From the NCBI GenBank assembly GCA_964202455.1, contig CAXNIJ010000004.1, positions 36,483 through 100,482 of the forward strand: a stretch of DNA of 64,000 nt, given 5' to 3'. Origin of the DNA: Candidatus Pacearchaeota archaeon (lineage in GTDB: Archaea; Nanobdellota; Nanobdellia; Pacearchaeales; GW2011-AR1). Within the stretch, counting starts at the first letter, position 1, and each line of letters begins with the position of its first letter. The notes under the pieces are model-generated. The model did not search any database, was not told the DNA's origin, and saw nothing but the letters and a program-made list of their open reading frames with translations. Shown piece by piece: positions 5,982 through 45,600 of the stretch. The position numbers and the translations under genes are program-made.

Positions 5982-8024
5982 ATGAAAATTTTAAATGCTG
6001 TAAAAAGATACTTTAATTTATGTGAGAAAGTAATTGGAAAAACTTTCAATGAGAGATTCTTTTTATGGAGTAGTTTTATCTTTGTATATGGGTACCTTAT
6101 TTTAGTTTTAGTTCTTCCTATGCTTTTGAATAATGCAATGATGATGTGGGATCATCCTGGACTTTATTTTTCAGTATGGTATCAGAAAGTTTATGTGTTT
6201 CCAGATTTATTTGCCTGGAACCCTTATTTCTATGCTGGATTTACGCAGAATCAATTCTATCCTCCACTTTATGTTTATATCTCTGCTGGACTTTCATATT
6301 TATTCCCCATAACTATTTCCTTGAGAATTATGCTTGCACTAACCCTACTTTTAACACCTCTATCCTTTTATGTTTTTGCACGCGCCCTTAAATTTTCTAA
6401 AGAAAAATCTGGTTTATGTATGCTTATAATGTTTTCATTATTATTTTTATTTCCTACAAATTATTATGGGGGAAATCTACCTTCTACATTTAGGATAGGT
6501 CTTGTAACTCATGCTTTTGGAATGATGTTATTTTTCTTTTACTTTGCATCTTTGATTAAATCTAAAGAAAGTGGAAAATTTGTTTTACCTACGATTATTT
6601 TCAGCGCAATTATTTTAAGTCATATTATTGCTGCAGTCGTATCTGGCCTATTATTACTAACTTTTATTTTTCTTTATTGTAAAGAAAAAGTATTTAGAAA
6701 ATTTTTGTATTTGCATATAAGTTTAACTTTTCTTCTGACTGCTTTCTGGACGATTCCATTTTTAGCAAAAAAATCATTTATGACGGTCATTCACCTCTCA
6801 AATAATGGAAACATTGAACTGTTCTCCATTTTGGCTGTTTTTTATGCTTTGTTTATTATTTTTAGTAAGAAATATTTAGATAATGTAGAAAAATACCCTG
6901 TCGCATTATTTCTTCTAATTATATTATCCTTATCTTTATTAGGGCAGATATTTTATAATGTGCCATTTCATTTTTACAGATTAACTTACTTTTTTCTTCT
7001 AATGTTTCCAATTATAATCTTATCATTGTATAAAAAATCTGCAATATTAAACTTGATTATTATTGGAGTGTCAGTGATAATGATATTTACTTCTGCACCT
7101 ATAAATCCAATAGGGCCAAAAATGATGGAAATTTCACCTGTCCAATATGTACTTGATGGAAGAACATTTATTGTTGCTTCCTATGATGAAGAAACTGCCC
7201 CTCACCTCCTTCAGAACATAATTCCATTAGAAAATAAAATCAATAGCATAAAGGGACTTTATGTTGAATCTACTCGAAATGGAGAATATATTCTTAATTT
7301 TGAAAAAGAACTTGACCCAGATAAATCTCTTTCATGGGGTAGCCTGATTTATGGTCAATATCCTCCGAAGAATAAATCCCTTATTGAAGATATCTTGCCA
7401 TATCAATTTAATTTGTTTGGGATAAATTATGTTATTATTTCTGAAGATAAGGCGCGACTGGAATGGGAAAAACTACAAAATATTTCAAAATACGAAAACT
7501 ATGGAAAAATAAATTACTCTCTTTATAAAGTTGGAGATTACGCTTTAGCTGAAGTTATTAAAAAACCAGTCAGAGTTGTAGACTCTGCAATCTGGAAAGA
7601 AGAAAGTCTTAATTGGTTGTTCTCTAGCGCCATAAAAGAAGAAATTCTAGTTAGTGAAAATGTTCCTCAAATAATTGGCTCTTTTAGTGATGAAGTTGAT
7701 GTTTTGACGCAGAGTGAAAGACAAGATTATGTTAAACTTTATGTTTCATCTGAACAACCAGTCCCAGTTTTAGTTAAAATATCTTACTTCCCTAACTGGA
7801 AAGCTTATCAAGATGGCAAAGAAATTCCAATTTATAGAACTTCTCCAGACCTTATGTTAATTTATGCTACGGGGAATGTTGAACTGAGATATGAACAATT
7901 GCCAGTTGATGTTGTTGGAGAAGGTCTAACTCTAGCTGGAATAATTTTATTTTTAATTTTATACTGGAAATCTCTTTCGAGAAAAGTTGTGAAGAATCAT
8001 AAGAAAAGAAGAAAATATTCTTAA
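5982..8024 (+). CDS. large polytopic membrane protein with an extracytoplasmic C-terminal domain (possibly a GT-C-type glycosyltransferase)
   Basis: 680 aa: more than 10 hydrophobic helices over the first ~400 aa, a soluble domain, then a terminal TM. Starts 2 nt after the Cys-rich gene. The family assignment is a guess. Confidence 0.6.
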   Translation: MKILNAVKRYFNLCEKVIGKTFNERFFLWSSFIFVYGYLILVLVLPMLLNNAMMMWDHPGLYFSVWYQKVYVFPDLFAWNPYFYAGFTQNQFYPPLYVYISAGLSYLFPITISLRIMLALTLLLTPLSFYVFARALKFSKEKSGLCMLIMFSLLFLFPTNYYGGNLPSTFRIGLVTHAFGMMLFFFYFASLIKSKESGKFVLPTIIFSAIILSHIIAAVVSGLLLLTFIFLYCKEKVFRKFLYLHISLTFLLTAFWTIPFLAKKSFMTVIHLSNNGNIELFSILAVFYALFIIFSKKYLDNVEKYPVALFLLIILSLSLLGQIFYNVPFHFYRLTYFFLLMFPIIILSLYKKSAILNLIIIGVSVIMIFTSAPINPIGPKMMEISPVQYVLDGRTFIVASYDEETAPHLLQNIIPLENKINSIKGLYVESTRNGEYILNFEKELDPDKSLSWGSLIYGQYPPKNKSLIEDILPYQFNLFGINYVIISEDKARLEWEKLQNISKYENYGKINYSLYKVGDYALAEVIKKPVRVVDSAIWKEESLNWLFSSAIKEEILVSENVPQIIGSFSDEVDVLTQSERQDYVKLYVSSEQPVPVLVKISYFPNWKAYQDGKEIPIYRTSPDLMLIYATGNVELRYEQLPVDVVGEGLTLAGIILFLILYWKSLSRKVVKNHKKRRKYS

Positions 8025-12703: not shown

Positions 12704-13330
12704 ATGAGTGAACGGCACATCAGGAATCGAAAGAGACATTATGGTCGTATCATGGAGGAGTACCAGAATTCTAGAGATCCAGAAAAAGTAATGAATATCT
12801 TCTATCCTGGTGAAACGGGGATGAATTATCTTATCTATGAGAAAAATCCTCTCAATATAGGTTATGGTCTATCAAGGAAACCTCTTCTTTCAGAGCAATA
12901 TGTAGGATGCAATGGTATTGCTTTGCTCTCAGGAAAGTACGGGGTACTTTCTCACTATAATCCTGATGCGGGAGATATCTATATTCATGCGAGTCGCACT
13001 GCAAAAGCAATCCTTTCACGAAATACTGGTGATGAAACTCTAGCAATACTTATAGGGGGAAACCGCTCACACGCAGAAACGAATCGAGAAATCCTTATGG
13101 AGAGAGGCATCAGAATCATGGGAGAGTACATCGATGGTGTGGGATCTGAGAACCCTGCAACCTTTAAGATGGGAGATTATCTGCCCTCTAAAAATGTCCT
13201 TGTTCTTCCCGCTAGACAGGAAGTCATTGTGCAAATTAAGTTGAAATTGGCAGTGGATCCTCTCCTCGATTTAGATTCCGTTGCATATATCGTCTTTAGA
13301 AGAGGGAGAGGTCCTAAACGTTTTCTTTAA
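12704..13330 (+). CDS. hypothetical protein, weak CheD-like deamidase resemblance
   Basis: ATG at 12704. VGCNGIALLSGKYGVLSHYNP, LAILIGGNRSH and NREILMERGIRI resemble the CheD pattern GSC..V.L....G..H..LP / k.fGGa.m / rN......L...gI.i. The G+C content is visibly higher than in the neighbours. Confidence 0.5.
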   Translation: MSERHIRNRKRHYGRIMEEYQNSRDPEKVMNIFYPGETGMNYLIYEKNPLNIGYGLSRKPLLSEQYVGCNGIALLSGKYGVLSHYNPDAGDIYIHASRTAKAILSRNTGDETLAILIGGNRSHAETNREILMERGIRIMGEYIDGVGSENPATFKMGDYLPSKNVLVLPARQEVIVQIKLKLAVDPLLDLDSVAYIVFRRGRGPKRFL

Positions 13331-14146: not shown

Positions 14147-14773
14147 TTGTCCCTACTTTCACTTGCAGGTCTAGTTGGTTGTACAGAGATTGATAGCAGA
14201 GATGCAATGAAATATGGCGTTATGGATTATCAAGAGGTAATTGATGCAGTTAAAACTCCTGCACAAGCTCGCGCCTATATTATAAATAATATTCAACCAG
14301 GGCTAAGTGATAGTACTACAGGAAGTCTCTCCTTTAGAAAAATACATGAACACAGAAAAGGAGATTGCTCTGAAGCAGTAGTTGCAGCTTCTGCATTATT
14401 GAGTGATAATGGATATCCGCTGATACATCTGGTAATGGCTCACAGTTATGGGGAAGTTCGACATGGTGTGTTTGTATATAAAGAAAATAATAAGTGGGGA
14501 ACTATTAGCATTAATTCCTCAGAAAACCACAATGCGAAATTCTCAACATTAGAAGAGGTTTCAACAGCACTAGGATATGACTTATACAGACTCGGCAGGA
14601 TTCATGATGAGCTTATTCCAGATTGGATCTCTACTGATAGAAACCTTGCTTTTACAGCAGAAGAAATTAAAAATTTACCTGAGTTTAGTTTCACAAAAGT
14701 AAGAAATCCCATCAGAGTAGGAAGAGGAGCAGTCATATATACTAATATTCTTGAAGAATTGTCAGCATATTAG
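14147..14773 (+). CDS. transglutaminase-like cysteine peptidase domain protein, probable lipoprotein (start uncertain)
   Basis: KGDCSEAVVAASALLSDNGYP fits the G.C..fA....aLlr..GiP transglutaminase-core pattern, with later His/Asp candidates. N-terminal LSLAGLVGC is a lipobox. See the frameshift finding. Confidence 0.55.
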   Translation: MSLLSLAGLVGCTEIDSRDAMKYGVMDYQEVIDAVKTPAQARAYIINNIQPGLSDSTTGSLSFRKIHEHRKGDCSEAVVAASALLSDNGYPLIHLVMAHSYGEVRHGVFVYKENNKWGTISINSSENHNAKFSTLEEVSTALGYDLYRLGRIHDELIPDWISTDRNLAFTAEEIKNLPEFSFTKVRNPIRVGRGAVIYTNILEELSAY

Positions 14774-16068: not shown

Positions 16069-16851
16069 TTATCCTCTAAGAGCAATTGTATTTCCCGATT
16101 CATATCTTCTAAGTCCTTTGTAAAATAACCAGATGGCAAATGCAGAAGAAGCGATCATAAATCCAATTAAAATAATAAACCATTCTAAATTGAAGCTCTT
16201 AAGAAGTTCTACTGGGACTCCACTTATGAATCCTGCTGGAATAACAAATAGAAGAAGGAATTTGCTGAACCCTGAGAATACTGAATAAGGATATGTTGAG
16301 AAAATAATCAGAGTTTCGTTTGCAGTCCTGGCTCCTGCTTCAAATCTTCCTGTGAAAAATGCTATTGAACCGAAGATGATTGCATAGTTTAGAAAAAAGA
16401 CTGCTCCGCAAATCACTAATAATATAAATAAAGGAACTTGGCTCCAACTTAATATAAATAATGATATAAATATTCCGAAAAAGAGATCTCCTGTCGCTGG
16501 ATACCTCAACTTTGCAATTGAGTGAAGCAGGACATTTTTAGGGAGAGTGATAAAATAGTCTAGTGCTCCTCCTTCTATCATCGTTGCAATTCTTCTTACT
16601 TGACCAAAAAATACTCCAGTTAAACCAAAAGAAATAGTTACAATTGCATAAAGAAGTGCCATGTCATGAAAACTCCAACCGTTCATTGACTCGAATTTTT
16701 GGAATAGAATATACCAAAAGAAAATCCAAATCAGATTATTAAGAAACATTCCAAAAGACTGTGCAATAAAATTAAATCTATATTCCATTGCCGATGCTAG
16801 TTCTATTCCGAAGAATTTCTTTAGAAAAACAAGATGATTTCTAACCCCCAT
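16069..16851 (-). CDS. ABC-2 type transporter permease
   Basis: Six-TM protein immediately downstream of a paralogous permease and an ABC ATPase. The start is taken at the internal Met (MGVRNHLVFLKKFF). Confidence 0.7.
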   Translation of the reverse strand: MGVRNHLVFLKKFFGIELASAMEYRFNFIAQSFGMFLNNLIWIFFWYILFQKFESMNGWSFHDMALLYAIVTISFGLTGVFFGQVRRIATMIEGGALDYFITLPKNVLLHSIAKLRYPATGDLFFGIFISLFILSWSQVPLFILLVICGAVFFLNYAIIFGSIAFFTGRFEAGARTANETLIIFSTYPYSVFSGFSKFLLLFVIPAGFISGVPVELLKSFNLEWFIILIGFMIASSAFAIWLFYKGLRRYESGNTIALRG

Positions 16852-17632
16852 GTGATGTGACCTCCTTGAGTCCTTTTTTGTAAATAAATGCAAGTATTCC
16901 TAAAAAGACAATTATCCAGATAACTTGTCCGACTATTGCTTTGATAAAATCTGAGAGATTGAAATGGATGAATAGCTTTGCAGGAAGATACATTATATAA
17001 GTTGTTGGAAGTTCTGCTGTAATTTGTCTTAACCAAAGAGGATAGAAGTCTAGTGGTACTAGCATTCCACCTAAGACGAATAAAAACTTCTGATAAATCC
17101 ACATTAATGCTGTGACATCTTCTAACCAGAGTGCTAAAAGAGAAAGACTTAGAACTATCAAGAAGCTTATTATTGCTGAGCCGATAATTAGAAGAGAAGT
17201 TAAAATCAATCCTATCAATGTTACTTGAATTGGTCCCACATAGAAATATGCTAGAAGAATGCCTGCAGTCCCTACTATTGCAAAAGTAGAAATAAATTCA
17301 GCTAATAAAATACAGAATTCTCTGCCTGCATAATGGTATGGCTTTAGAAGAGCGCTGGTAATTGCTCCTGAACGAATTTCTTCTCCTAAAGAATCTATTC
17401 TAACTGAACCGGTAGAAAATAGAATTACTTCGGTTAGAGTTAAGTACCAAATCATCTGAGCAATGGTGTATCCATCAATTGCAGATTTTCCTGCATAAAC
17501 TGTTTTCCAAATCTGTAAGAAAATGAAAAGAATCATTGCAAGAACTACTGTTCTAGTAGCCATATTCCAGAAATGAGAAAACTGCTCGATCAAATACATT
17601 TTGATAATTGCCAGATATTTTTGTATTTTCAT
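16841..17632 (-). CDS. ABC-2 type transporter permease
   Basis: 263-aa polytopic protein that overlaps the ATPase stop by 4 nt. Confidence 0.7.
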   Translation of the reverse strand: MKIQKYLAIIKMYLIEQFSHFWNMATRTVVLAMILFIFLQIWKTVYAGKSAIDGYTIAQMIWYLTLTEVILFSTGSVRIDSLGEEIRSGAITSALLKPYHYAGREFCILLAEFISTFAIVGTAGILLAYFYVGPIQVTLIGLILTSLLIIGSAIISFLIVLSLSLLALWLEDVTALMWIYQKFLFVLGGMLVPLDFYPLWLRQITAELPTTYIMYLPAKLFIHFNLSDFIKAIVGQVIWIIVFLGILAFIYKKGLKEVTSHGG

Positions 17633-18606
17633 CTTCTGTATAGCTCTTCTATAATTTCTTCTATTGGTGGATCTTCAATAACAATATCTTCTATTTCATA
17701 TTTTGAAAGAAATTTATCTAAAACTTTTCTTATTGAAGTTCTAGTTCGGTCTATTTCGGCAATTACTTTATAGGGTTCTTGGTGAATAATTTTCACATAA
17801 GGCATTTTTTCTAGGTGTTCTACTGGTTCTTCAAAATAGAGCTCTAAAATTTTATGCTTTATCTTGTCTTTTATGGAATCCATTGAACCTTCATAGACTA
17901 TTTTCCCATGATTTATTACAATTATTCTTGGGCAGAGTTCTTCAATATCCTTTATATCATGGGATGTTAGAATTATAGTAGTTTTCTCTTGCTCATTTAA
18001 TTTTTTGATAAATTCTCTCATTTTCTTCTTTGCTATTATGTCTAGACCTATTGTGGGTTCATCTAGGAAAAGAACTTCTGGCTTATGGAGTAAAGAAGCT
18101 ACGAATTCACACCTCATCCTTTCGCCCAGAGAGAGTTTTCTAACTGGAGTCTTCATTAGATCTTGTATCTCGAATAGTTTTACTAAAGAGTCTCTCCTTT
18201 TTTCATATTCTTTTTGATCTAAGTCGTAGATTTTTGAGAAAAGGTCAAATGAGTCTATTGCTGGGAGATGATATGAAAGTTGCTGTCTCTGACCAAAAAT
18301 AGTTCCTATCTTGTAAGCTAATTTAACTCTATCTTCTTGAGGATTAAATCCTAGAACAGACATTCTGCCTGAAGTTGGAAATAAAATTCCTGAGAGCATT
18401 TTTATTGTTGTGCTTTTACCTGCTCCGTTAGGACCAATGAACCCTACAATTTCTCCTTTCTTAATTTCAAATGAGAGATTGTCTACTGCCTTGACTGTTT
18501 TGTAAACTGGACGAAGCATACTTTTGAATGCCCCTTTTAATCCTGGATTTTTTACTTTTGTCTTAAATTCTTTAGAAACTCCTTTTACAATTATTGCATT
18601 CTCCAT
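17629..18606 (-). CDS. ABC transporter ATP-binding protein
   Basis: Walker A GPNGAGKSTT, signature LSLGERMR, Walker B LFLDEPTIGLD, H-loop TSHD. The start is taken at MENAIIVKGV (18606). Confidence 0.9.
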   Translation of the reverse strand: MENAIIVKGVSKEFKTKVKNPGLKGAFKSMLRPVYKTVKAVDNLSFEIKKGEIVGFIGPNGAGKSTTIKMLSGILFPTSGRMSVLGFNPQEDRVKLAYKIGTIFGQRQQLSYHLPAIDSFDLFSKIYDLDQKEYEKRRDSLVKLFEIQDLMKTPVRKLSLGERMRCEFVASLLHKPEVLFLDEPTIGLDIIAKKKMREFIKKLNEQEKTTIILTSHDIKDIEELCPRIIVINHGKIVYEGSMDSIKDKIKHKILELYFEEPVEHLEKMPYVKIIHQEPYKVIAEIDRTRTSIRKVLDKFLSKYEIEDIVIEDPPIEEIIEELYRR

Positions 18607-18634
18607 GCTCTTTTCTTTAACGAGAAGAGAGTTT

Positions 18635-19309
18635 TTAATTCTTCGTTTCATGCTTTTTGACGGCATTGTATATTCCCTGCTTGTTATTTGAGTAATAGGC
18701 CCACATTCTATCTCCATAAGACCAATGCCACCATTCTAGTGGATAGTTAGTGAATCCGACTTTTTTCATCAGATCAATTAACAATGAACGATTTTTTTGT
18801 TCTTCTTCTGTCAAGCCATTGCAGATAGTATGTGCTTTTTCGGATATTGAATTAATCTCTGAACCCATTGGCAATTCTTTTCCAGCTACATCAACTAAAG
18901 TTATGTCTACTGCTGCGCCAGTTGTATGGGGGGGAATAGTTTCTGGATTTGCAACCCACTTGTCTGTTTCTAAAATAAGTTCTTCTTTAGTCATTGATTG
19001 ATTTTTTTCTTTTATTTCTTCAAATACTAACTTATAGAGTTTTTTCTGTGTATCTAATGAACGAAAGCCATCTATGACTTTTATCTTAATGCTTTTATGA
19101 AGAAGAGATTGAGCTTGAGAGAGCATTATCGCAACACTTTCTCTGATGAAGCATTCGTCTTCCTTGAGATTTTCATATTCTCTTGAGAAAGAATTTATTT
19201 CTATGATGATATCTTTTGAATAATCTCTAAGTGAAACTAGAGATTCTTTTGATTCTATAACTGGAATTTTCATTAATTCAAAATCTGAAATTACTTCTTG
19301 TTCATTCAT
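18635..19309 (-). CDS. M15D D-alanyl-D-alanine dipeptidase (VanX/DdpX-like)
   Basis: DGFRSLDTQKKLY, PPHTTGAAVDITL and EWWHWSYGD correspond to the VanX zinc-ligand and catalytic motifs. Confidence 0.8.
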   Translation of the reverse strand: MNEQEVISDFELMKIPVIESKESLVSLRDYSKDIIIEINSFSREYENLKEDECFIRESVAIMLSQAQSLLHKSIKIKVIDGFRSLDTQKKLYKLVFEEIKEKNQSMTKEELILETDKWVANPETIPPHTTGAAVDITLVDVAGKELPMGSEINSISEKAHTICNGLTEEEQKNRSLLIDLMKKVGFTNYPLEWWHWSYGDRMWAYYSNNKQGIYNAVKKHETKN

Positions 19310-20025
19310 GATAATCTTTCTATCCTCCCTGTTAAAGATATGCCTGAATTAGTTTTTTCTACTTTCAACAAACCGCCAGGCATGAATATTTTTGATTCTC
19401 CTGTTTCTAGAGCAGCGGCAATTGAACCAGTTCCACATGCTGCAGTAAAGTCTTCTACTCCGGTTTCGAATGTCTGCGCAAATATTCCTTGATTAATCTT
19501 TTTTACAAATGTAATATTCGCGCGGTGTTTTTTTCTTAAAGAGCTGGCTTTTGTTTTGAAGTTCTCTAGAGAGTCTACAATTATCACTTTATGTATGACT
19601 CCCCCAATATTCCAACAATTATTTATTTTCCATACTTTTGAAAATTCTACCTTAACTTCTTCTCCAATTATATTATATCTAAATGATCTTCCGAATGAAT
19701 AAATCGTGCCATTATTTTCTACTAGTCCTTTGGTGTGAGTTGCAAATACACAGACGCGTAAAGCATTACCACAATTATCTCTTGAGCCATCTGGATTAAA
19801 AAATTTCATTATTAATTTCTTGTTAGATTTTAATTCTAGAAAAGAAAGACCCTCTGCGTTATGCTTTTTACAGAGTTTTATTATATTCGATTTAGAGAGG
19901 GTTTTCTTATTAAAAAAACGATGCGCCACCCTACCTTGAAAGGGAGGGTTTACGTCAAATTCCTTGATATTAAAAAATAAGATAAATCTATTATGGTTGC
20001 CATGCCATATTTCAAAGTTATTCAT
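19306..20025 (-). CDS. DapF-fold PLP-independent epimerase/racemase (diaminopimelate-epimerase-like)
   Basis: FEIWHGNHNRFILF (compare F.KmhGlGNDF), FNPDGSRDNCGNALRVC and AACGTGSIAAA. Both catalytic Cys motifs are present. At 239 aa it is short for DapF. Confidence 0.7.
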   Translation of the reverse strand: MNNFEIWHGNHNRFILFFNIKEFDVNPPFQGRVAHRFFNKKTLSKSNIIKLCKKHNAEGLSFLELKSNKKLIMKFFNPDGSRDNCGNALRVCVFATHTKGLVENNGTIYSFGRSFRYNIIGEEVKVEFSKVWKINNCWNIGGVIHKVIIVDSLENFKTKASSLRKKHRANITFVKKINQGIFAQTFETGVEDFTAACGTGSIAAALETGESKIFMPGGLLKVEKTNSGISLTGRIERLS

Positions 20026-21190
20026 GATAAACCTCCGTTCTTTGAAGAGTGTGTGGGGAACCTTTTTTAAGTGATTGTTGTATTCCTGCTTTACCGAATT
20101 GAGGATATACTACTCCGAAGCCTATTCTTTTCTTTAATTTCTCTTCTACTAGTAAACTTCCATCGTGCCCAGTACAAACTAACTCGACTTCGTCAAATCC
20201 TGGAACTTTATTGAAATATGGAATAAGCTTCCTAGCATACCCATCTGCTCCTGCCATAAACTGCCCGGCTAGATGAATTCTATAAAGACTATCTGTACCT
20301 GGATCTTTTCGTGCTGGACTAAGAGAGATATAACTTAGAACCGATAAGGTGGGTATTAATATTCCTTTTTTCATTGCATTTGGACTTTCCTCTGCAAGAA
20401 CACTTTCCACTTCCCCATTTCTTTGAAACTGGAATCTATCTGGATTCTCGAAGAATTTCACAGGACATAGCTCTCCCTTGTGCGATTTTGCTCTGAATAG
20501 ATAGGTTGTGCCATTTGACTTGTGCTTGTGCTTGTACACATCAGGTAAATCCATTTTCCAGAAAGGAAAACCTGCTTCTAGATCTTCTTCTAGTTTTTGA
20601 GCATATAAGTCTCTAGAAAGAGAAGCGGGAGTACCTGAAGAATTAATTCCTGCGAGAGATAAGAATCTCTTTCTTATATTTTGCAGAAAATCTAAAGTAG
20701 ATTTGCTTTGGGACGCTGAAGTTCTAATTGATTTTATTACCTCTGAAAATCTTTGTGCTACTAACGATTTATTCTCTTTCGAGAAGCCAGTATTTTTTAC
20801 TAAGTTATCAAATGGTTCTTCTGTTGATCTTATAATTTGATCCGGTCGATACTCTTGATTCTCTATTGTTCGGCCATAATCAAAAAATATTGGAATAAAT
20901 TGTTCTTTTCCATCCCTATCTTTTAGATTTGTTTCTAATCTATCTCCAAGGGGTTTTTCTTTCTCTGGAAAAGTGCCATCATAATCTTCTAGAAGCATAG
21001 CTAAATTGCCTGATCTTTCTTTAATCAAGTCTACTAATGCATATCCATGTATTTCATCTGAAGTGAGATTGGGGGTGCAATGTGCGAAACTTGAAGATAG
21101 AGAGTATTCTACGTATCTTTGAGGTTTTTCCGGAGCTTTCGAAGAGTCTATCTTTTCCAAGATATCTTTGGCTATTTGTTCATTAAGCAT
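20018..21190 (-). CDS. hypothetical protein (390 aa), no family recognised
   Basis: Long ORF that overlaps both neighbours by 8 nt, consistent with translational coupling. Confidence 0.7.
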   Translation of the reverse strand: MLNEQIAKDILEKIDSSKAPEKPQRYVEYSLSSSFAHCTPNLTSDEIHGYALVDLIKERSGNLAMLLEDYDGTFPEKEKPLGDRLETNLKDRDGKEQFIPIFFDYGRTIENQEYRPDQIIRSTEEPFDNLVKNTGFSKENKSLVAQRFSEVIKSIRTSASQSKSTLDFLQNIRKRFLSLAGINSSGTPASLSRDLYAQKLEEDLEAGFPFWKMDLPDVYKHKHKSNGTTYLFRAKSHKGELCPVKFFENPDRFQFQRNGEVESVLAEESPNAMKKGILIPTLSVLSYISLSPARKDPGTDSLYRIHLAGQFMAGADGYARKLIPYFNKVPGFDEVELVCTGHDGSLLVEEKLKKRIGFGVVYPQFGKAGIQQSLKKGSPHTLQRTEVYHE

Positions 21191-21482
21191 TTTTGCCCCC
21201 CACTAATAGAAGTGCTGAAAGTGAAAGAACTATCTTATCTGATTCTTTCTCTAAAAGACCTAGAGAATTGAGAGAACGTAGAATAGACCAAGATGTAGAC
21301 TCTGCGCAGTTTAGCTCTTGAGCGAGATTCTTTACAGTTTGAGTTGTTCGCTCATGCTCTTCTTTATCGAAAATTATCTTGAGAGCTTTTTTTTCTCTAG
21401 CAGTTAGTTTTTTCGAAGCTAATGCTATAAAAGAATGATGCAAATTTTTTTCATAGATTTTAGATATAGATTTAGTATTCAT
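21183..21482 (-). CDS. winged-helix transcriptional regulator
   Basis: The ATG at 21482 is preceded by GGAGG. VKNLAQELNCAESTSWSILRSLNSLGLLEK is a wHTH recognition helix plus wing. Confidence 0.6.
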   Translation of the reverse strand: MNTKSISKIYEKNLHHSFIALASKKLTAREKKALKIIFDKEEHERTTQTVKNLAQELNCAESTSWSILRSLNSLGLLEKESDKIVLSLSALLLVGGKNA

Positions 21483-21639: not shown

Positions 21640-21850
21640 AGTGGTTTTTTTATGTCAAGGAACTTGAAATAAACTCCAGCTCATCAAGAATCTGCTGATT
21701 CTTGAGTGCCATCAAGGACTTTCATCCTTGAGGTTTAAGCTGGAGATGGTTCCTTGAGCATCCAAAGCACGAGCGCTTATTCAAACCCCAACTTTTAAGT
21801 TGGGGTAGCGCATCGTGCTTTTGATTTTAGAAAGACTTAAAAACTCTTTA
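21640..21850. repeat. hairpin-rich intergenic element, copy 1 (candidate structured RNA)
   Basis: Shares about 75 nt at one end and about 36 nt plus GAAAGNCTTAAAA at the other end with 40030-40250. Nested helices: CAAGGAAC/GTTCCTTG, CTCCAGCT/AGCTGGAG, TCAAGAATC/GATTCTTGA (21684-21705), CAAGGA/TCCTTG, AAAGCACGA/TCGTGCTTT, CCCCAACT/AGTTGGGG (21786-21805). Confidence 0.6.
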
Positions 21851-34583: not shown

Positions 34584-36041
34584 TTAGATGACTTTTCTAA
34601 ATTTTAGAAATCCTTCTAAATCTTCAATTATTTTATTTTGAGGTATTCTATGATCATCTAGATTTCTTCTCCAAATTTCTCTATCATTTTTATCTGTAAT
34701 TAATGCCATGTCCCAATATAACCAGAGTCTTGATCCGTCTTTGAAAATTCCATCTCTGTATTTTTGAACTAACTTCCCTCTTGTTTCAGCTCTTGTTTTT
34801 GGAGGAATTACCATTCCTCGCTCCGCATCTCTTTGAGAAACGTGCTGTTCTATCCAACCATCGGATAGCGTTTGATAAAATAATCCTCCTTCATCGATTC
34901 TATGATAGTCTAAGTTTATACTTTGAATTAATGGACTATCAAACTCGAGATTATCTGCGCCAGCCATTCTTTCTATAAGATATTTTTTTGTGACCCAATC
35001 TAGTCTTCCCGCTAGTGTATAAGGATCATTTTTGATTCTTTCTAATTTATAAATAGTATCTCTAAATAAATCTAGAACTAAATTTCTAAAAGAATCTTGA
35101 CCATAAAATTCAGTGCGCATCACCTCTTCATATTTTCTTAAAACTGAAGTCGCTTTCATATATTCTTTTGGAGTTCCATCTAAGGTCCAGTCTTGATGCT
35201 GGGAGCAAACATTTTTTAAATCAGTTATTGCAAAATCACAATCTTTCTCAGCATAATAGGGTATTTGTGGAAGTAACCTATTTTCGTGTAAAGCAAGAAC
35301 ACACTGCATTAATTCTTGCTTCATTGCTAACGCACTTTGACACATGTTTGCATCGTTACTAATATGATGAAATCTATACCATCCTCTCAGACCCGTTAAA
35401 GGTTCATTTCTTGTATTCATCAATCCCCTTCCCGTGACTCCTGCGCGAGTATCCAAAGAAAAAGCTCTTTGTATGAAATTTTTTCTTTGTGATATCTCAA
35501 ATTGCCCTTCTGGATATTGATAACCTGCTCCGGTAATAATTTTTTCAACAACTGACCAGAGAAGAAGAGGCCCTAATGTCAATTCAGAAGGTTCAAATCT
35601 GGTACTGAAATTTTGATGAGCTCCGAAGCTTATTCTACTATCTCGATTCATTTTATAAATTAAGGGAGATAAATCTCGATCATCAAATATATTTAATGCT
35701 AAAAAATCTGTTGCCCTGTCTTGTTTTATTAGTTCTCTAGTATCTAAGCATTCTGGAGTACTTCCTTCTAGATGCTCTAAGTCACAATATATAACTCCCC
35801 CGTTAGGGAGATTTCTCCAATATGCTCCGGTTAGCATAATACTTTCATTATGTGCTGGAGAAGAAATAGTATTTAATTGAGAAATCTTTTCACAGATGTA
35901 TCTGTCTCTTTCATCTTCATTTTCTATATTTGGAAACTCTATTGCATATTCATGTTCAAGACCTTGTACTTTTCCATCAAAATTTACCTTGGGACTTGAT
36001 TGATGAAATTCATTTCTAATAAATCTTTTTGGGAAATTCAT
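34584..36041 (-). CDS. Pup-ligase/deamidase family protein (PafA/Dop homologue)
   Basis: Collinear matches to PafA along the whole length: GLEHEYAI (GIETEFG), LPNGGVIYCDLEHLEGSTPEC ([22 protein letters not shown]), RDSRISFGAHQNF (TDSAGNSYGCHENY), IITGAGY (LICGAGK), NTRNEP (NTRDEP), RLDWVTKKYL (EIDWVIKRKL), LDYHRID (LAYHDIK), PPKTRAETRG (PPQTTRARLRG). Confidence 0.85.
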   Translation of the reverse strand: MNFPKRFIRNEFHQSSPKVNFDGKVQGLEHEYAIEFPNIENEDERDRYICEKISQLNTISSPAHNESIMLTGAYWRNLPNGGVIYCDLEHLEGSTPECLDTRELIKQDRATDFLALNIFDDRDLSPLIYKMNRDSRISFGAHQNFSTRFEPSELTLGPLLLWSVVEKIITGAGYQYPEGQFEISQRKNFIQRAFSLDTRAGVTGRGLMNTRNEPLTGLRGWYRFHHISNDANMCQSALAMKQELMQCVLALHENRLLPQIPYYAEKDCDFAITDLKNVCSQHQDWTLDGTPKEYMKATSVLRKYEEVMRTEFYGQDSFRNLVLDLFRDTIYKLERIKNDPYTLAGRLDWVTKKYLIERMAGADNLEFDSPLIQSINLDYHRIDEGGLFYQTLSDGWIEQHVSQRDAERGMVIPPKTRAETRGKLVQKYRDGIFKDGSRLWLYWDMALITDKNDREIWRRNLDDHRIPQNKIIEDLEGFLKFRKVI

Positions 36042-40029: not shown

Positions 40030-40250
40030 GGTGTTTTTATATTTGATTATGTCATGGAACTTGACTAAAACTCCAGCTCGTCAAGAATCTTTGATTCTTG
40101 AGTGCCATCAAAGACGTATGTCTTGGAGGCTAAGAAACTCTTTGAGTTTCGAGGCGATCAGAAACTTTCAGTTTCTGACGTTTAAGTTGCGGTGGCGCAT
40201 CGTTTTTTTGATTTACAAAACTAAACCGAAAGTCTTAAAAGACTTCACTC
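40030..40250. repeat. hairpin-rich intergenic element, copy 2 (candidate structured RNA)
   Basis: Homologous to 21640-21850 at both ends. Hairpins: TCAAGAATC/GATTCTTGA (40081-40101), CAAAGAC/GTCTTGG, GAAACTC/GAGTTTC, TCAGAAACT/AGTTTCTGA (40158-40178). It abuts the kef start codon (40027). Confidence 0.6.
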
Positions 40251-41643: not shown

Positions 41644-42636
41644 CTACTTTTGTTCTAAAGGTGGGCCCTTAACATGTTTAACGATGGCCTGGCTTCTTTT
41701 TTTCAGATGCTCTGAAAGTGCGAAAAATGTTAATAATGCTCCAGCAATTGTTGAAAATATTATAGCATATTCTTTTATTTTTGTAATTGATGATGCTTTT
41801 TTTACAGATTCTATTTTTTTCTCTTGATCTTCTAATTCTTCTTTTGCAAGTATTACGCTTGCCTGAGCTTTCTGGACTTCCCCAGATATTATATTTGTTT
41901 CTGTTTCTCTAAGATCGATTTTTATTTGATTTAGACTAATGTCTGATACATCATAATCCTCGTTTTTTTTCTCATTGAGTTTAGATTCTAAATCGAGATA
42001 TTTTTGTTTTATTGCTTTTAACTCTGAAGTTATATTTTGAATCAATTGAATCTTTAACTTTTCAGAATTTTCCTTTTCCAGATTAGAAATATTGCTTGGC
42101 GCAATAACAGTTATATTTTTATAAAATATAAAACTCTGTATTTTTATTGTTAGAAGAATTGTTCCAGATTCTTTGAAATTGCCAGTGATAAGAAGATATC
42201 CTTTTTCTTCAGGATTGAGTGAATCAATCGGGAGTACATCGTAAGTTGAAAATCCTTTAGCTGTCACAAGCGCAAGGATATTTTTTTGTGTCTCCGTACC
42301 TGCATTTTCTATTTGAAGTGTCATTTGAATATCTCCTAATTTAAATTCTTGAGGAATTATATTTTTTATTAAAAGAAGAGTTATATTTTCTTTTTTAGGC
42401 AGAGCCACATTAGGAGATTTTTCAGGAGTCATATTTGTTGTATTAATCGATAAAGATAGCGCTGAGAAATCTGATTCATTTATTATGGTGCTTTTTATCT
42501 GAGTCATCAAAGAAGAGTTCTCGTCTGCACTTATTAGTGGAAATAACATAATCGCAATCATTAAAAATATAAATATTGTCTTTTTCATGTTGTGTGTATT
42601 CGTTAAAAGCATTCTTAAATCTTGCTCTTTACTCAT
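41644..42636 (-). CDS. hypothetical secreted protein with a C-terminal TM anchor
   Basis: Signal-like N-terminus IFIFLMIAIMLFPLISA, a coiled-coil region and a C-terminal TM (AIIFSTIAGALLTFFAL). Confidence 0.55.
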   Translation of the reverse strand: MSKEQDLRMLLTNTHNMKKTIFIFLMIAIMLFPLISADENSSLMTQIKSTIINESDFSALSLSINTTNMTPEKSPNVALPKKENITLLLIKNIIPQEFKLGDIQMTLQIENAGTETQKNILALVTAKGFSTYDVLPIDSLNPEEKGYLLITGNFKESGTILLTIKIQSFIFYKNITVIAPSNISNLEKENSEKLKIQLIQNITSELKAIKQKYLDLESKLNEKKNEDYDVSDISLNQIKIDLRETETNIISGEVQKAQASVILAKEELEDQEKKIESVKKASSITKIKEYAIIFSTIAGALLTFFALSEHLKKRSQAIVKHVKGPPLEQK

Positions 42637-45600
42637 TTTTTCTTCTAGTATCTATAAAATGTGTGATTCCTGCTACAATTAGAATTATTAAAACTACCCA
42701 AATTATGTTTTTCCAATTTAAATATGAAGCAGATCTAACTTGGGGCAATGATGGAGAAGTAGTATTTTTATTTTCGATTGAAATATTTGAAGGGCTTATA
42801 TTTTTTACTTCTGAATCGGTAATTGAAGGGCTTATTGAATATGAAATAAGTTCATTTATTGTCTGTATAGTTAGAGAGGCTTTATCCTTGGTTATACTTT
42901 CTACTTTAACATAAAGATTATAATATTTTGGAGAAGTTAAATTTAGTTTTATACTTTGTCCTGCTCCTAAAAGAAAATTTATTGGCTCGCTCCTTATAGT
43001 AATATTGACTCTATTTTCGCTAACTGCCTCAACTGTAAGTGAGTGTTGTACTGATTTTTCGTCAAAAAGAGTAAATTTCACTTTATCTTCCTTTTTTAAT
43101 TCTTGAGTAAATCCATTTGATGTCTGTTGTTCACTAAGACTAAATGTGCTTGCGGTGGCTCCCCCGCCTCCTCCTCCGCCGCCACCGCCACCGCCACCAG
43201 AAGAACTTACCGAGGGTGAAGAAGGAGCAGTAATCGTTAGCGTTCGTGCACTTGCATTGCCCACGTTTCCTGCAATATCTGTGCAATTAATACTCCAATT
43301 ATAACTCCCTGGTCCCATTGTTAATGAAAATGACTGATTAAGAGATTGATTAATGAAAGTGCTGTTCGTTGTATTCACTGCTCCATCGATAATGAGCGAG
43401 CAACTGGAAAGGTTGAGATTATCCGTAGTATTGTAAGTGAAATTTAATGAAAGAGAGGAAATTGTTTCTGCATAATTATTTGCTGGAGAGATAATTGTGA
43501 TATTTGGAGCAGTGAAATCTATAGTAAAGTTTCCTGCGAATGAACTATTGAAGTTTCCCGCCGTATCATTGCAGTAATAAGTAACATTATAATTTTGGTC
43601 TTGAATTAGAGTCAGATTTGTTGCATTGAATGTTCTATTATCTGTTGCGCCCATTGAATAGTTTGCAACTCCATGATTAAGGGAATAGAGGCAACTCCCA
43701 TTTTCATTTAAAGTTATGTTAAACCTTCCTTGATTGTAATAGCTTCCGTTGAGAGGAGAAGTAACGTTAATAATTGGCAATGTTAGATCATATGTAATTG
43801 TTTTATTTGTAGAAGCAAATGTTGCGATATTAGTATTGTCTCTAAACAAACAATTCCAAGTGTACACTCCTTCTGCTGTGAAATTAACTGTGAAGTTTTT
43901 AGTAGCACTTGTTCCAGAAATATTACTAAAACTGATATTCATTGCATTGCTTGAACTGTTCCAGAGATAGAACGTGACATTAGTAATATTAATTCCAGAA
44001 CTTACATTACAGATATACGTCTGATTTTGATTTGTGATTACTCCAGAAGAAGGAGATATAAGATCTATGATTGAACCGGAGATAGTAATTGTATTATTCA
44101 AAGTTGCAAACGTCTTATTATTATTTTCATCTGTAAAGAGGCAGTTCCAAGTGTATGTTCCACTTGTAATGTTTGTAATATTGACCTGCAAAACTGCCGC
44201 ACTTCCATTGACATTTTGCGAAGTTTGATTTGTGATTGAAGAAGGTGCATTCCAGAGATAGAATGTTCCATTTTTAATTGCCAAATCTGTCGCATTACAG
44301 TTAAAGGTTTGATTGATGTTAATTGATGCGGCCGCATTTGCTGGAGAGATAAGTGTAACATTTGGTGCAGAATTGTCCAAAGAGATTATTGATGCGTAGA
44401 TATTTATGAGTGAATAATTAAGATTTGATGCTCCATCATATATTCTCTTTCCTGTAGAGTTAAGCACCGATTTTAGTTGTGCAGGAGTTCTTGACTGTCC
44501 GGTATTATTTAAATATTGATTAAGAATCATAATCGCGCCAGCAACATGGGGTGTTGCCATGCTTGTTCCGCTAATAGAACAATAAGATTTTCCTGCACCA
44601 CATGCAGTCAAAACTGTTCCTGCTGGAGCAGTAATCATTGTTGAGTTAATGTTGAAACCTGGAGCGATGAGCTGCACCAAGGCGTTTCTGTTGTAGTTGA
44701 ACGTTGAGCTGTCTTTTTGTATGCTCCCCACGGCCGTTGCGTTTTGTACACATGCTGGGCCACTTATTTGCGTTGTTGATCCATCGTTTCCTGCTGCAAT
44801 AACAATTGAGATGTTATTTTTGAAAGCGCTGTCTATATATGGCGTTAATGTATCTGTTCCATCACAATTATTGGTAGAGAGACCACCACCCAGACTCATG
44901 CTAATAACTGAGATATTATAACGAGTTGCATTTCCGATACACCAGTTAATTCCGGCAGCTACGTTTGTATCAGTACAACTTCCTGAAGAACTACATGCTT
45001 TGATTGCAATAATTTTTGCCTGCGGAGCGACACCATTTATTGTACCATTAGCAGCAGCAATGCCTGAAACGTGCGTGCCATGACCATTATCATCCATGGG
45101 ATCGCTATCGCCATTTACAAAATCATGACCGCCTATAATTTTACAGGGTGAAGATGCATTGTTGTTACCGAAACAACTGCCTAAATCTGAATGACTATAA
45201 TTTACTCCAGTATCTATGATACACACTGTTTGTCCTGCGCCAGTTAAATTTAATGTACCTACTTGAAGAGAAAGTGTGCGAGTAGCATTAACTAAAGGTG
45301 TTGAATCTTGTAATGAAATGTGACGAATCCCTGCCTCTTGCACTTTTTCAATGTCAGGGTTATTTTCAAGCTGGTTTAATTCATCTAAAGTGATATATGC
45401 AGAAATAGCTCCTTCGCTCTCAAATTCATGTTCACGATTCTTGATATTAATTATTTTTAATTTTTCCTTTTGTGTTTGGACTGATCTCTTAATTGAGGTT
45501 TGTGTAGGTTCTTTTTTTGCGTATATAAATACATGAACCGTATATTCTTGTGCTACTTTTTTATATATTTCAGAAGTTATTTTTCTTTCTTTTTTTCCAG

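What the first reader, a model, noticed from the sequence alone, without database searches (positions are those of the whole stretch)
16069..21482. Seven-gene operon coupling a DapF-fold epimerase and a VanX-like D-Ala-D-Ala dipeptidase to an unknown 390-aa protein, a wHTH regulator and an ABC-2 exporter
All seven minus-strand genes overlap or abut (4-11 nt overlaps), which implies one transcript: wHTH, 390-aa unknown, DapF-like with both catalytic Cys, M15D dipeptidase with VanX zinc/catalytic motifs, ABC ATPase and two ABC-2 permeases. DapF and VanX chemistry (LL/meso-diaminopimelate, D-Ala-D-Ala) belongs to bacterial murein peptide metabolism. It is unexpected in an archaeon with otherwise minimal metabolism. 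Plausible roles are salvage or detoxification of bacterial peptidoglycan peptides, or production and export of a D-amino-acid-containing peptide, with the 390-aa protein as the unknown core. A copy of the structured repeat element sits about 150 nt upstream of the operon.
Basis: partly seen in the sequence, partly recalled or inferred. Interest (0 to 1): 0.65.

Follow-up and report, generated by a model that had tools for sequence, protein, structure and literature searches.

The report
Archaeal D-amino-acid dipeptide gene cassette
A tiny wall-less archaeon carries a conserved four-gene cassette (small regulator, a new amino-acid ligase-like enzyme, an amino-acid racemase and a D,D-dipeptidase) that looks built to make and break D-amino-acid dipeptides, chemistry normally tied to bacterial cell walls.

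Summary
The seven abutting minus-strand genes are real and the domain calls hold. DAP_epimerase and Peptidase_M15 pass Pfam thresholds with catalytic residues intact, and there is an ABC ATPase plus two PF06182 permeases.

The seven genes are not one conserved unit. Across at least 12 distinct DPANN loci only wHTH, the 390-aa protein, the DapF-like gene and M15 are syntenic and overlapping. The ABC-2 transporter occurs only in this strain.

The 390-aa "unknown" belongs to an orphan family of about 40 clusters among 5.8 billion proteins. It has no sequence-level match. Two independent AlphaFold models both hit BshC first (E about 2e-6), then class-I aminoacyl-tRNA synthetases.

In sister archaeal cassettes the same DapF-like/M15 pair sits beside Ddl-family ATP-grasp ligases. 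In some bacterial-looking loci (domain not tested) M15 sits beside an Asp/Glu-type racemase. One bacterium keeps the 390-aa homologue with M15 and DapF.

The DapF-like enzyme has lost the residues that bind the distal carboxylate of diaminopimelate, so DAP is unlikely to be its substrate.

Best reading (about 0.45): a racemase, ligase and D,D-dipeptidase triad, like VanT/VanC/VanXY, for a D-Ala-D-Ala-type dipeptide. The BshC-like protein would be a non-orthologous replacement for Ddl. Substrate and purpose remain inferred. I rate it a new variant of a known kind, with interest about 0.65.

The parts
21183..21482 (-). g1: small (99 aa) probable winged-helix DNA-binding protein, the first gene of the conserved cassette
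   Evidence: The Pfam hits are borderline: HTH_27 22.1 bits and Fe_dep_repress 23.2 bits, both over residues 25-83. There are weak matches to the wHTH of Csa3/CARF3/CasR. Orthologues lie upstream of g2 in 9 distinct loci besides the window, and are absent in L008 and L018. The recognition-helix motif C-x2-ST-x-W-x3-RSL is conserved. A GGAGG lies 9 nt upstream of the ATG. No structure was obtained.
20018..21190 (-). g2: 390-aa orphan-family protein with a BshC/class-I aminoacyl-tRNA-synthetase-like fold; the proposed amino-acid ligase
   Evidence: There is no Pfam, NCBIfam or PDB sequence hit. The family is tiny. The AlphaFold model has pLDDT 91.8 and pTM 0.92. The top Foldseek hit is BshC 4wbd (E 2.4e-6, prob 1.0), followed by CysRS, ArgRS and MshC. 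A model from the bacterial-branch alignment gave the same result. Invariant polar residues are H37, N41, E46, D71, Q112, R147, R173, K222, T281 and H306.
19306..20025 (-). g3: DapF-fold, PLP-independent two-Cys amino-acid racemase/epimerase, shortened and probably not specific for diaminopimelate
   Evidence: DAP_epimerase scores 46.8 bits, above GA 34.7. The TIGR00652 equivalog scores 71.1, below its 114.65 cut-off. The family profile hits DapF structures at 1e-38 and the O-ureidoserine racemase DcsC at 9e-22. Both Cys, N11, G74/N75, G218/T219 and E208 are kept. Q44 is G, N157 is V, R209 is T, and about 25 residues are deleted.
18635..19309 (-). g4: cytoplasmic M15D (VanX/DdpX-type) zinc D,D-dipeptidase
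   Evidence: Peptidase_M15 scores 80.9 bits (GA 27). The DdpX and VanX equivalog cut-offs are not reached. It aligns to VanX 1r44 across the HxxGxAxD and EWWH motifs. The Asp and Arg of the DxxR motif are kept relative to DdpX. It belongs to a subfamily with an ETDKWVANP insertion and an EWWHWSYGDR tail. No N-terminal signal sequence is evident in the translation.
17629..18666 (-). g5: DrrA-like ABC ATPase (start uncertain: 18666, 18651 or 18606); a strain-specific neighbour
   Evidence: ABC_tran scores 95 bits, with a DrrA1-3_C tail. TIGR01188 drrA scores 232 bits, below its cut-off. It was found next to the cassette only in contigs identical to the window.
16841..17632 (-). g6: ABC-2 permease (PF06182); a strain-specific neighbour
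   Evidence: ABC2_membrane_6 scores 74.5 bits. It overlaps g5 by 4 nt. No homologue appears in any other cassette locus.
16069..16851 (-). g7: second ABC-2 permease (PF06182); a strain-specific neighbour
   Evidence: ABC2_membrane_6 scores 99.6 bits. It overlaps g6 by 11 nt. No homologue appears in any other cassette locus.

Best explanation
The conserved unit is the four-gene cassette g1-g4. It is a dedicated module for metabolism of a D-amino-acid dipeptide of the D-Ala-D-Ala type.

Proposed steps:
- g3, a DapF-derived two-cysteine racemase, interconverts the L and D forms of a free amino acid. This is probably not diaminopimelate.
- g2, a BshC/class-I aaRS-like Rossmann enzyme, is the ligase. 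It activates an amino acid, presumably with ATP through an aminoacyl-adenylate as MshC and the aaRSs do. It then joins it to an amine acceptor to give a D-aminoacyl dipeptide or amide. It fills the role that Ddl-family ATP-grasp ligases play in sister cassettes.
- g4, a VanX-type Zn dipeptidase, hydrolyses free D,D-dipeptide in the cytoplasm. It may remove an unwanted dipeptide, as VanX/VanXY do, or turn the product over.
- g1, a small wHTH protein, probably regulates the operon.
- In this strain only, an ABC-2 transporter is fused downstream and probably co-transcribed, which suggests the product or a by-product is exported.

Shown: gene order and its conservation, the family and fold assignments, the catalytic residues, and loss of DAP distal-site residues.

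Inferred: ligase activity and ATP use by g2, the identity and chirality of the substrates, the direction of flux, regulation by g1, and export.
For: 1. Synteny. The order g1-g2-g3-g4, with overlapping stop and start codons, is kept in at least 12 distinct Nanoarchaeota/Woesearchaeota loci at 40-72% g2 identity. A bacterial contig (bacterial-type LeuRS) with a g2 homologue of only about 30% identity still has g2-M15-DapF.

2. The fold of g2. Two AlphaFold models from non-overlapping alignments (pLDDT 91.8 and 89.7) both hit BshC first (E 2.4e-6 and 2.0e-6, prob 1.0). The next hits are class-I aaRSs, and in the first search also MshC.

3. Non-orthologous displacement.
- In other low-GC archaeal loci (TFB on L038), a related DapF-like/M15 pair (36-41% M15 identity) lies next to Ddl-family ATP-grasp ligases (PF07478, 89-108 bits), often with a GNAT.
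- In L040 and L099 the M15 gene is followed by an Asp/Glu-type amino-acid racemase (TIGR00035, 153-171 bits).
- The recurring theme is therefore racemase + ligase + D,D-dipeptidase, with each slot filled by different folds.

4. The catalytic sets of g3 and g4 are intact.

5. Precedent. PddB is a DapF-derived racemase with the same Q44G and R209 loss and E208 retention. It is translationally coupled to an adenylating enzyme that uses the free D-amino acid (PMC8225329).

6. No defence-system match for g2-g4.
Against: - No sequence-level link of g2 to any ligase.
- Canonical HIGH and KMSKS motifs are absent. The TM-score to BshC is only 0.46-0.47 over a high rmsd.
- BshC's own reaction has never been reconstituted in vitro (PMC5790435), so 'ligase' is itself a weak anchor.
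- A cell that both makes and hydrolyses a D,D-dipeptide needs an extra rationale, which is not shown.
- These archaea are not known to have a D-Ala-D-Ala acceptor pathway. No Mur ligase or MraY was seen in any flank or noticed in the window, where 17 products were Pfam-scanned and the rest only read as ORFs.
- Bacterial (Elusimicrobiota-type) g2 homologues stand alone among housekeeping genes, so the family is not obligatorily tied to the triad.
- There are no expression data.
Confidence: 0.45

Rival explanations
1. Salvage or detoxification. The archaeon takes up D-Ala-D-Ala or other D,D-dipeptides released from bacterial peptidoglycan. g4 splits them and g3 converts the D-amino acid to the usable L form. 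g2 is not a dipeptide ligase but does something downstream, for example charging or conjugating the recovered amino acid, or sensing it.
For: The M15-plus-racemase pair is the most widely recurring core, and it occurs without any detected ligase in L040 and L099. E. coli DdpX sits in a D,D-dipeptide import operon, and from my own knowledge it serves survival in starvation. Woesearchaeota and Pacearchaeota with small genomes encode large murein lytic transglycosylases and may prey on bacteria (PMC8204110 and PMC9723730). g4 appears cytoplasmic.
Against: A ligase-type gene (g2 or Ddl-family) accompanies the pair in most archaeal loci with enough upstream sequence (all g2-type loci; L042, L043, L045, L047, L058). 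In L038, L039 and L041 the upstream side is cut off. No importer is conserved next to the cassette, and the only transporter seen is an ABC-2 type without a binding protein. L040 and L099 look bacterial, though their domain was not tested, so peptidoglycan metabolism could explain the pair there.
Confidence: 0.25
2. Envelope-precursor remodelling, as in VanC-type resistance. The racemase makes a D-amino acid, and the ligase makes D-Ala-D-X for incorporation into a peptide-bearing envelope polymer. The M15 enzyme destroys the competing D-Ala-D-Ala.
For: This is the same three activities as VanT/VanC/VanXYc (own knowledge of the van operons). NCBIfam places the sister-cassette ligases nearest to Ddl/VanG-type ligases. 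A bacterial locus (L018) carries g2-M15-DapF with a full-length DapF that keeps Arg209 (Asn157 is Thr).
Against: No Mur ligase, MraY, transpeptidase or VanRS-type regulator appears in any flank or was noticed in the 64-kb window, where only 17 products were Pfam-scanned. DPANN archaea are not known to have murein. Whole genomes could not be checked.
Confidence: 0.1
3. An obligatory production-and-export system for a D-amino-acid peptide, in which the ABC-2 transporter is an integral component.
For: In the window the transporter genes abut or overlap g4 with no room for a separate intergenic promoter. The same arrangement occurs on three independent assemblies of the same strain.
Against: None of the other cassette loci has any g5-g7 homologue within up to 8 kb. 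Their downstream neighbours differ from locus to locus.
Confidence: 0.07
4. g2 is not an enzyme of this pathway at all, for example a nucleotide-binding regulatory or structural protein, and its adjacency is historical.
For: No catalytic motif could be validated. Bacterial homologues are stand-alone genes.
Against: Overlapping reading frames with g1 and g3 are conserved across 40-72% identity and across domains. About a dozen invariant polar residues are shared by the archaeal and bacterial branches, which is typical of an active site.
Confidence: 0.08

Closest known systems
VanC-type vancomycin-resistance core (VanT racemase, VanC D-Ala-D-Ser ligase, VanXYc M15 D,D-peptidase), and more generally the Alr/Ddl/VanX-DdpX trio
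   Same: The three activities are encoded together: an amino-acid racemase, a dipeptide-forming ligase and an M15 Zn D,D-dipeptidase. g4 is a true M15D homologue with the VanX catalytic residues.
   Different: The racemase is DapF-fold rather than PLP-dependent. The ligase is BshC/class-I aaRS-like rather than ATP-grasp. The regulator is a small wHTH rather than VanRS. The host is a wall-less DPANN archaeon with no visible murein precursor pathway.
BshC (bacillithiol synthesis cysteine-adding enzyme), and MshC / class-I aminoacyl-tRNA synthetase catalytic domains
   Same: The predicted fold matches, with BshC the top structural hit for two independent models. The implied chemistry is adding an amino acid to an amine via an activated acyl donor.
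   Different: There is no detectable sequence similarity and no Pfam BshC match. The protein is about 150 residues shorter, which is consistent with lacking BshC's C-terminal coiled-coil. There is no bshA/bshB context and no canonical HIGH/KMSKS. BshC's own reaction is unresolved.
PddB/PddA (poly-D-2,4-diaminobutyrate synthesis): a DapF-derived racemase translationally coupled to an adenylating enzyme
   Same: It is a DapF-derived two-Cys racemase with Gln44 changed to Gly, loss of Arg209 and retention of Glu208. It is translationally coupled to an enzyme that activates the free D-amino acid.
   Different: The partner is an NRPS-like polymer synthetase rather than a BshC-like protein. No M15 peptidase is involved. 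It is actinobacterial secondary metabolism. g3 still keeps Asn64 and Asn190.
E. coli ddp operon (DdpX plus the DdpABCDF D,D-dipeptide importer)
   Same: An M15D dipeptidase is encoded with an ABC transporter, giving cytoplasmic cleavage of D-Ala-D-Ala.
   Different: The ddp transporter is a binding-protein-dependent importer. Here the transporter is an ABC-2 (DrrA-like, PF06182) type and is not conserved. The ddp operon has no racemase or ligase.

Membership tests
Diaminopimelate epimerase (DapF) family | Pfam PF01678 match above the gathering score, in two repeats | tested here: met
   46.8 bits against GA 34.7, in 2 stretches. The family profile hits DapF structures at 4e-38.
Diaminopimelate epimerase (DapF) family | Catalytic thiol pair (Cys73/Cys217, E. 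coli numbering) and the reactive-centre binders Asn11, Gly74, Asn75, Gly218, Ser/Thr219 | tested here: met
   All are conserved in every cassette member, with one exception: L018 lacks the N-terminal segment that carries Asn11. Residue roles come from PMC8225329.
Diaminopimelate epimerase (DapF) family | Equivalog-level score (TIGR00652) and distal-site residues for DAP (Gln44, Asn64, Asn157, Asn190, Arg209) | tested here: not met
   TIGR00652 scores 71.1, below 114.65. Gln44 is Gly and Asn157 is Val/Ile/Leu/Thr in all members. Arg209 is variable and is Thr in the window. Asn64 and Asn190 are kept in g2-type cassettes.
M15D D-Ala-D-Ala dipeptidase (VanX/DdpX) | Pfam PF01427 above the gathering score, with Zn ligands (H, D, H), catalytic Glu and transition-state Arg | tested here: met
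   80.9 bits against GA 27. HxxGxAxD, ExxH and DxxR align to VanX 1r44 and to DdpX.
M15D D-Ala-D-Ala dipeptidase (VanX/DdpX) | Equivalog score for DdpX (PRK10178) or VanX (NF033115) | tested here: not met
   80.9 against 176, and 55.2 against 320. Identity to DdpX is 21%. The subfamily is distinct, with an 18-aa insertion.
M15D D-Ala-D-Ala dipeptidase (VanX/DdpX) | Hydrolysis of D-Ala-D-Ala with a free N-terminus | not testable with these tools
   This needs an enzyme assay.
BshC / class-I aaRS-like (HUP) ligases | Rossmann-type catalytic-domain fold shared with BshC, MshC and CysRS | tested here: met
   Foldseek finds BshC 4wbd at E 2.4e-6 and 2.0e-6, prob 1.0, TMq 0.46 and 0.47. The next hits are CysRS, GluRS, ArgRS, MetRS and MshC.
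BshC / class-I aaRS-like (HUP) ligases | Sequence membership (Pfam BshC or tRNA-synt_1 models; HIGH and KMSKS signatures) | tested here: not met
   No Pfam hit at E<=10 for any of 17 members. No PDB sequence hit. hhalign against E. coli CysRS gives probability 0.2. Only candidate motifs are present: AH37xxPN41 after strand 1, DYD71G after strand 2, and K222HKSN.
BshC / class-I aaRS-like (HUP) ligases | Bacillithiol context (bshA/bshB) and BshC's C-terminal coiled-coil | tested here: not met
   No glycosyltransferase or deacetylase appears in any flank. The protein is 390 aa against 540 aa, and TM normalised to BshC is 0.35.
BshC / class-I aaRS-like (HUP) ligases | ATP-dependent amino-acid activation | not testable with these tools
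   This needs ATP-PPi exchange or AMP/ADP formation assays.
ABC-2 type exporter as part of the system | ATPase plus ABC-2 permeases present | tested here: met
   ABC_tran scores 95 bits, and two PF06182 permeases score 74.5 and 99.6 bits.
ABC-2 type exporter as part of the system | Co-conservation with the cassette in related genomes | tested here: not met
   g5-g7 homologues occur only in contigs identical to the window (L019, L020). They are absent from all other cassette loci.
VanC-type racemase/ligase/D,D-peptidase operon | The three activities encoded together | tested here: inconclusive
   The three gene types are present and syntenic. The racemase and ligase are of different folds, and their activities are only inferred.
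VanC-type racemase/ligase/D,D-peptidase operon | A murein precursor pathway (MurF/MraY) that consumes the dipeptide | tested here: inconclusive
   None was seen in the window or the flanks. Whole genomes could not be examined.
Winged-helix transcription regulator (g1) | HTH family HMM above threshold | tested here: inconclusive
   HTH_27 scores 22.1 against 22.2, and Fe_dep_repress 23.2 against 26. There are weak Csa3/CasR wHTH hits.

The most novel reading that the evidence does not exclude
The 390-aa family is a previously unrecognised class of D-amino-acid (dipeptide) ligase built on the class-I aaRS/BshC scaffold. It would be a functional analogue of the ATP-grasp Ddl. With it, wall-less DPANN archaea would synthesise a D-Ala-D-Ala-like dipeptide, which this strain exports, to interfere with or feed into the cell-wall metabolism of bacterial partners or prey.
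Probability: 0.2. Interest if true: 0.85.

Novelty: new variant of a known kind. Interest (0 to 1): 0.65.

Why it matters
D-Ala-D-Ala-type chemistry is a hallmark of bacterial murein and the target of major antibiotics. A conserved, translationally coupled racemase/ligase/D,D-dipeptidase cassette in ultra-small archaea with no known murein implies one of three things. These symbionts may make D-amino-acid dipeptides for a purpose unrelated to their own wall, such as signalling, antagonism or a protease-proof metabolite. They may exploit bacterial wall fragments. Or they may have an unrecognised peptide-bearing envelope component.

The finding also gives a concrete, testable function to an orphan protein family whose only structural relative, BshC, has resisted biochemical reconstitution. 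Solving one might illuminate the other. If the protein is a Ddl analogue, it would be a new case of non-orthologous displacement of a core cell-wall enzyme.

Tried and rejected
- Sequence-based identification of g2 failed. Pfam, NCBIfam and PADLOC gave nothing. A PDB profile search gave only spurious helical hits. hhalign against E. coli CysRS gave probability 0.2.
- An exhaustive phmmer search of 1.84 billion representatives found only 16 relatives. Profile and bacterial-seed searches added about 20 more, all unnamed.
- The BshC structure paper (PMC4303302) is not held, so BshC active-site residues could not be mapped.
- The idea that the upstream structured repeat belongs to the cassette was rejected. 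It is absent from every orthologous locus and has no Rfam match.
- The idea that the ABC-2 transporter is part of the system was rejected as a general statement.
- A defence or toxin-antitoxin reading was rejected. PADLOC gave no hits for g2-g4, and the neighbouring HEPN/NTase pairs are not conserved.
- Literature searches for DPANN with DapF, VanX or Ddl found no prior description.
- Contexts of the M15 subfamily in high-GC bacteria were uninformative.

Full report
**Observation**

The region 16069-21482 holds seven consecutive minus-strand ORFs. Overlaps at the g1/g2, g2/g3, g3/g4, g5/g6 and g6/g7 junctions are 8, 8, 4, 4 and 11 nt. The M15/ABC-ATPase junction is ambiguous. The public gene call gives a 32-nt overlap. 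The ATPase-typical start MENAIIVKG at 18606 gives a 28-nt gap. In neither case is there room for an ordinary intergenic promoter. The ATG of g1 at 21482 is preceded by GGAGG.

- g3: DAP_epimerase 46.8 bits (GA 34.7).
- g4: Peptidase_M15 80.9 bits (GA 27).
- g5: ABC_tran, with a DrrA-like C-terminal domain.
- g6 and g7: two PF06182 ABC-2 permeases.
- g1: only borderline winged-helix hits.
- g2 (the 390-aa protein): nothing.

The two DapF cysteine motifs and the VanX Zn/catalytic motifs align to solved structures and to E. coli DapF and DdpX. The window looks like a small-genome DPANN archaeon. It has about 33% GC, aminoacyl-tRNA synthetases and helicases, and no murein-synthesis gene was seen in it.

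**What is conserved**

The 390-aa protein has only 16-17 relatives among 5.8 billion clustered proteins. It has 16 among 1.84 billion representatives read exhaustively. Those with names come from Nanoarchaeota/Woesearchaeota MAGs.

I fetched their contigs and scanned them with the window's proteins and with family HMMs. In at least 12 distinct loci the order is small wHTH, 390-aa protein, DapF-like, M15. The same overlapping stop and start codons recur at 40-72% g2 identity. One MAG carries two divergent copies.

None of these loci has a homologue of the ABC ATPase or permeases. Those occur only on contigs identical to the window. Downstream neighbours differ from locus to locus. The functional unit is therefore four genes, and the exporter is a strain-specific addition that is probably co-transcribed here. 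The structured repeat upstream (z = -8.7; second copy near 40.0-40.2 kb) is also absent from the orthologous loci.

**The 390-aa protein**

An AlphaFold model from the 17-sequence family alignment is confident (pLDDT 91.8, pTM 0.92). Its only significant PDB match is BshC, the cysteine-adding enzyme of bacillithiol synthesis (4wbd; E 2.4e-6, prob 1.0, TMq 0.46). CysRS, ArgRS, MshC, GlnRS, GluRS and MetRS follow.

I repeated this with a non-overlapping alignment of the bacterial branch, about 27% identical to g2 and found by seeding with P0024. That model (pLDDT 89.7) again hit BshC first (E 2.0e-6, TMq 0.47), then class-I aaRSs, NAD synthetase and a cyclodipeptide synthase. The fold assignment is therefore robust.

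Family membership is not established. No Pfam, PDB or hhalign signal exists. The protein is about 150 residues shorter than BshC. The canonical HIGH and KMSKS motifs are missing.

About a dozen polar residues are invariant across the archaeal and bacterial branches: H37, N41, E46, D71, Q112, R147, R173, K222, T281 and H306. AH37xxPN41 follows predicted strand 1 and DYD71G follows strand 2. From my own knowledge, these are the positions where class-I aaRSs place HIGH and the acidic residue that binds the substrate ammonium. This was not verified on coordinates.

BshC's own reaction has never been reconstituted (PMC5790435), so 'ligase' rests on analogy with MshC and the aaRSs.

**Independent support from neighbourhoods**

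I scanned metagenomes with the M15 alignment and profiled the 80 loci returned. The results fell into a gradient.

- The closest M15s sit in g2-type cassettes.
- More distant low-GC loci have a related M15 (36-41% identity) and DapF-like pair without g2. One of these carries archaeal TFB, and another carries an archaeal-type YchF-related GTPase. Beside the pair lie Ddl-family ATP-grasp ligases (Dala_Dala_lig_C 89-108 bits; nearest NCBIfam models Ddl and VanG) and often a small GNAT.
- In two loci that look bacterial (domain not tested), the M15 gene is followed by an Asp/Glu-type amino-acid racemase (TIGR00035 above cut-off).
- A contig with a bacterial-type LeuRS carries a g2 homologue of about 30% identity, followed by M15 and a full-length DapF.

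The recurring association is racemase + ligase + D,D-dipeptidase, with each slot filled by different folds in different lineages. This is the strongest argument that g2 is the ligase of the set.

Elusimicrobiota-type bacterial homologues of g2 are stand-alone genes among housekeeping genes. The family is therefore not restricted to the triad.

**The epimerase**

All cassette DapF-likes keep the thiol pair. They also keep the residues that hold the reacting centre (Asn11, Gly74, Asn75, Gly218, Thr219) and Glu208.

In all of them Gln44 is Gly and Asn157 is hydrophobic or Thr. Arg209 is not conserved, and about 25 residues are deleted. In H. influenzae DapF, Asn64, Asn157, Asn190 and Arg209 bind the distal carboxylate of diaminopimelate, and Gln44 and Glu208 bind its distal amine (PMC8225329).

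The same paper shows that PddB, a DapF-derived 2,4-diaminobutyrate racemase, has Gln44 as Gly, Arg209 as Val and Glu208 retained. PddB is translationally coupled to an adenylating enzyme that uses the free D-amino acid.

g3 is therefore a DapF-family racemase (profile E 4e-38 to DapF, 9e-22 to DcsC) that is unlikely to act on DAP. Retention of Glu208, Asn64 and Asn190 leaves the actual substrate open.

**Mechanism proposed**

- g3 supplies a D-amino acid.
- g2 ligates it into a D-aminoacyl dipeptide or amide.
- g4 hydrolyses free D,D-dipeptide, either for proofreading as in VanX/VanXY or for turnover.
- g1 regulates the operon.
- In this strain an ABC-2 pump may export the product.

I put about 0.45 on this reading. 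The main rivals are:
- Salvage of D,D-dipeptides from bacterial murein, about 0.25. This is ecologically attractive because related archaea encode large murein lytic transglycosylases (PMC8204110 and PMC9723730). It does not explain the ever-present ligase.
- VanC-like remodelling of an unknown envelope precursor, about 0.1.
- g2 being unrelated to the pathway, about 0.08.

**Comparison and novelty**

The logic matches VanT/VanC/VanXY and Alr/Ddl/VanX, but two of the three folds differ and the host lacks known murein. The ligase-like protein is an orphan family with only a structural tie to BshC.

I found no prior description. I rate it a new variant of a known kind. It has a realistic chance (about 0.2) of being a new class of D-amino-acid ligase with an unexpected biological role.

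Noticed in passing
window 21640-21815 (-) and about 40030-40240 (-): A highly structured ~175-nt element (MFE -74.9 kcal/mol, z = -8.7) is present in two ~80%-identical copies in the window. It is followed by an oligo-T run. It has no Rfam match and is absent from orthologous cassette loci. It may be a small ncRNA gene or a MITE-like repeat.
   Followed up: partly
window 34584-36041 (-): A 485-aa protein has a full-length Pup_ligase (PafA/Dop family, PF03136) match of 192 bits. This is unusual for a DPANN-like archaeal genome.
   Followed up: no
window 42629-45676 (-): A 1015-aa subtilase (Peptidase_S8, 152 bits) has an Ig-like domain and a hydrophobic N-terminus. It is probably a secreted or surface protease, and small Cys-rich or membrane ORFs flank it.
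   Followed up: no
L013 and L017 (MAG NC_groundwater_210, contigs JACOZR010000020 and JACOZR010000003): The same MAG carries two divergent copies of the g2-g3-g4 cassette. In the L007/L017 copy an extra 145-aa ORF with no Pfam match lies between g2 and g3.
   Followed up: partly
L038, L039, L041, L043, L047 (metagenome loci): Sister cassettes with Ddl-family ligases carry a small GNAT acetyltransferase next to the DapF-like/M15 pair. This hints that the dipeptide or D-amino acid is N-acetylated there. L047 also has a 481-aa protein with a weak QueC/PP-loop hit.
   Followed up: partly
L009, L105-L107 (bacterial contigs): Elusimicrobiota-type bacteria have a stand-alone g2 homologue (27-47% identical within the branch). 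In two assemblies it lies between rpsT/recJ and ispH/mdh, which looks like a housekeeping gene of unknown function.
   Followed up: partly
window 14147-14773 (+), 12704-13330 (+), 5982-8024 (+): Several sizeable ORFs near the operon (208, 208 and 680 aa) have no Pfam match at E<=0.001. The 14147-14773 product contains a GDCSE motif reminiscent of transglutaminase-like cysteine proteases. That resemblance is from reading the sequence only.
   Followed up: no
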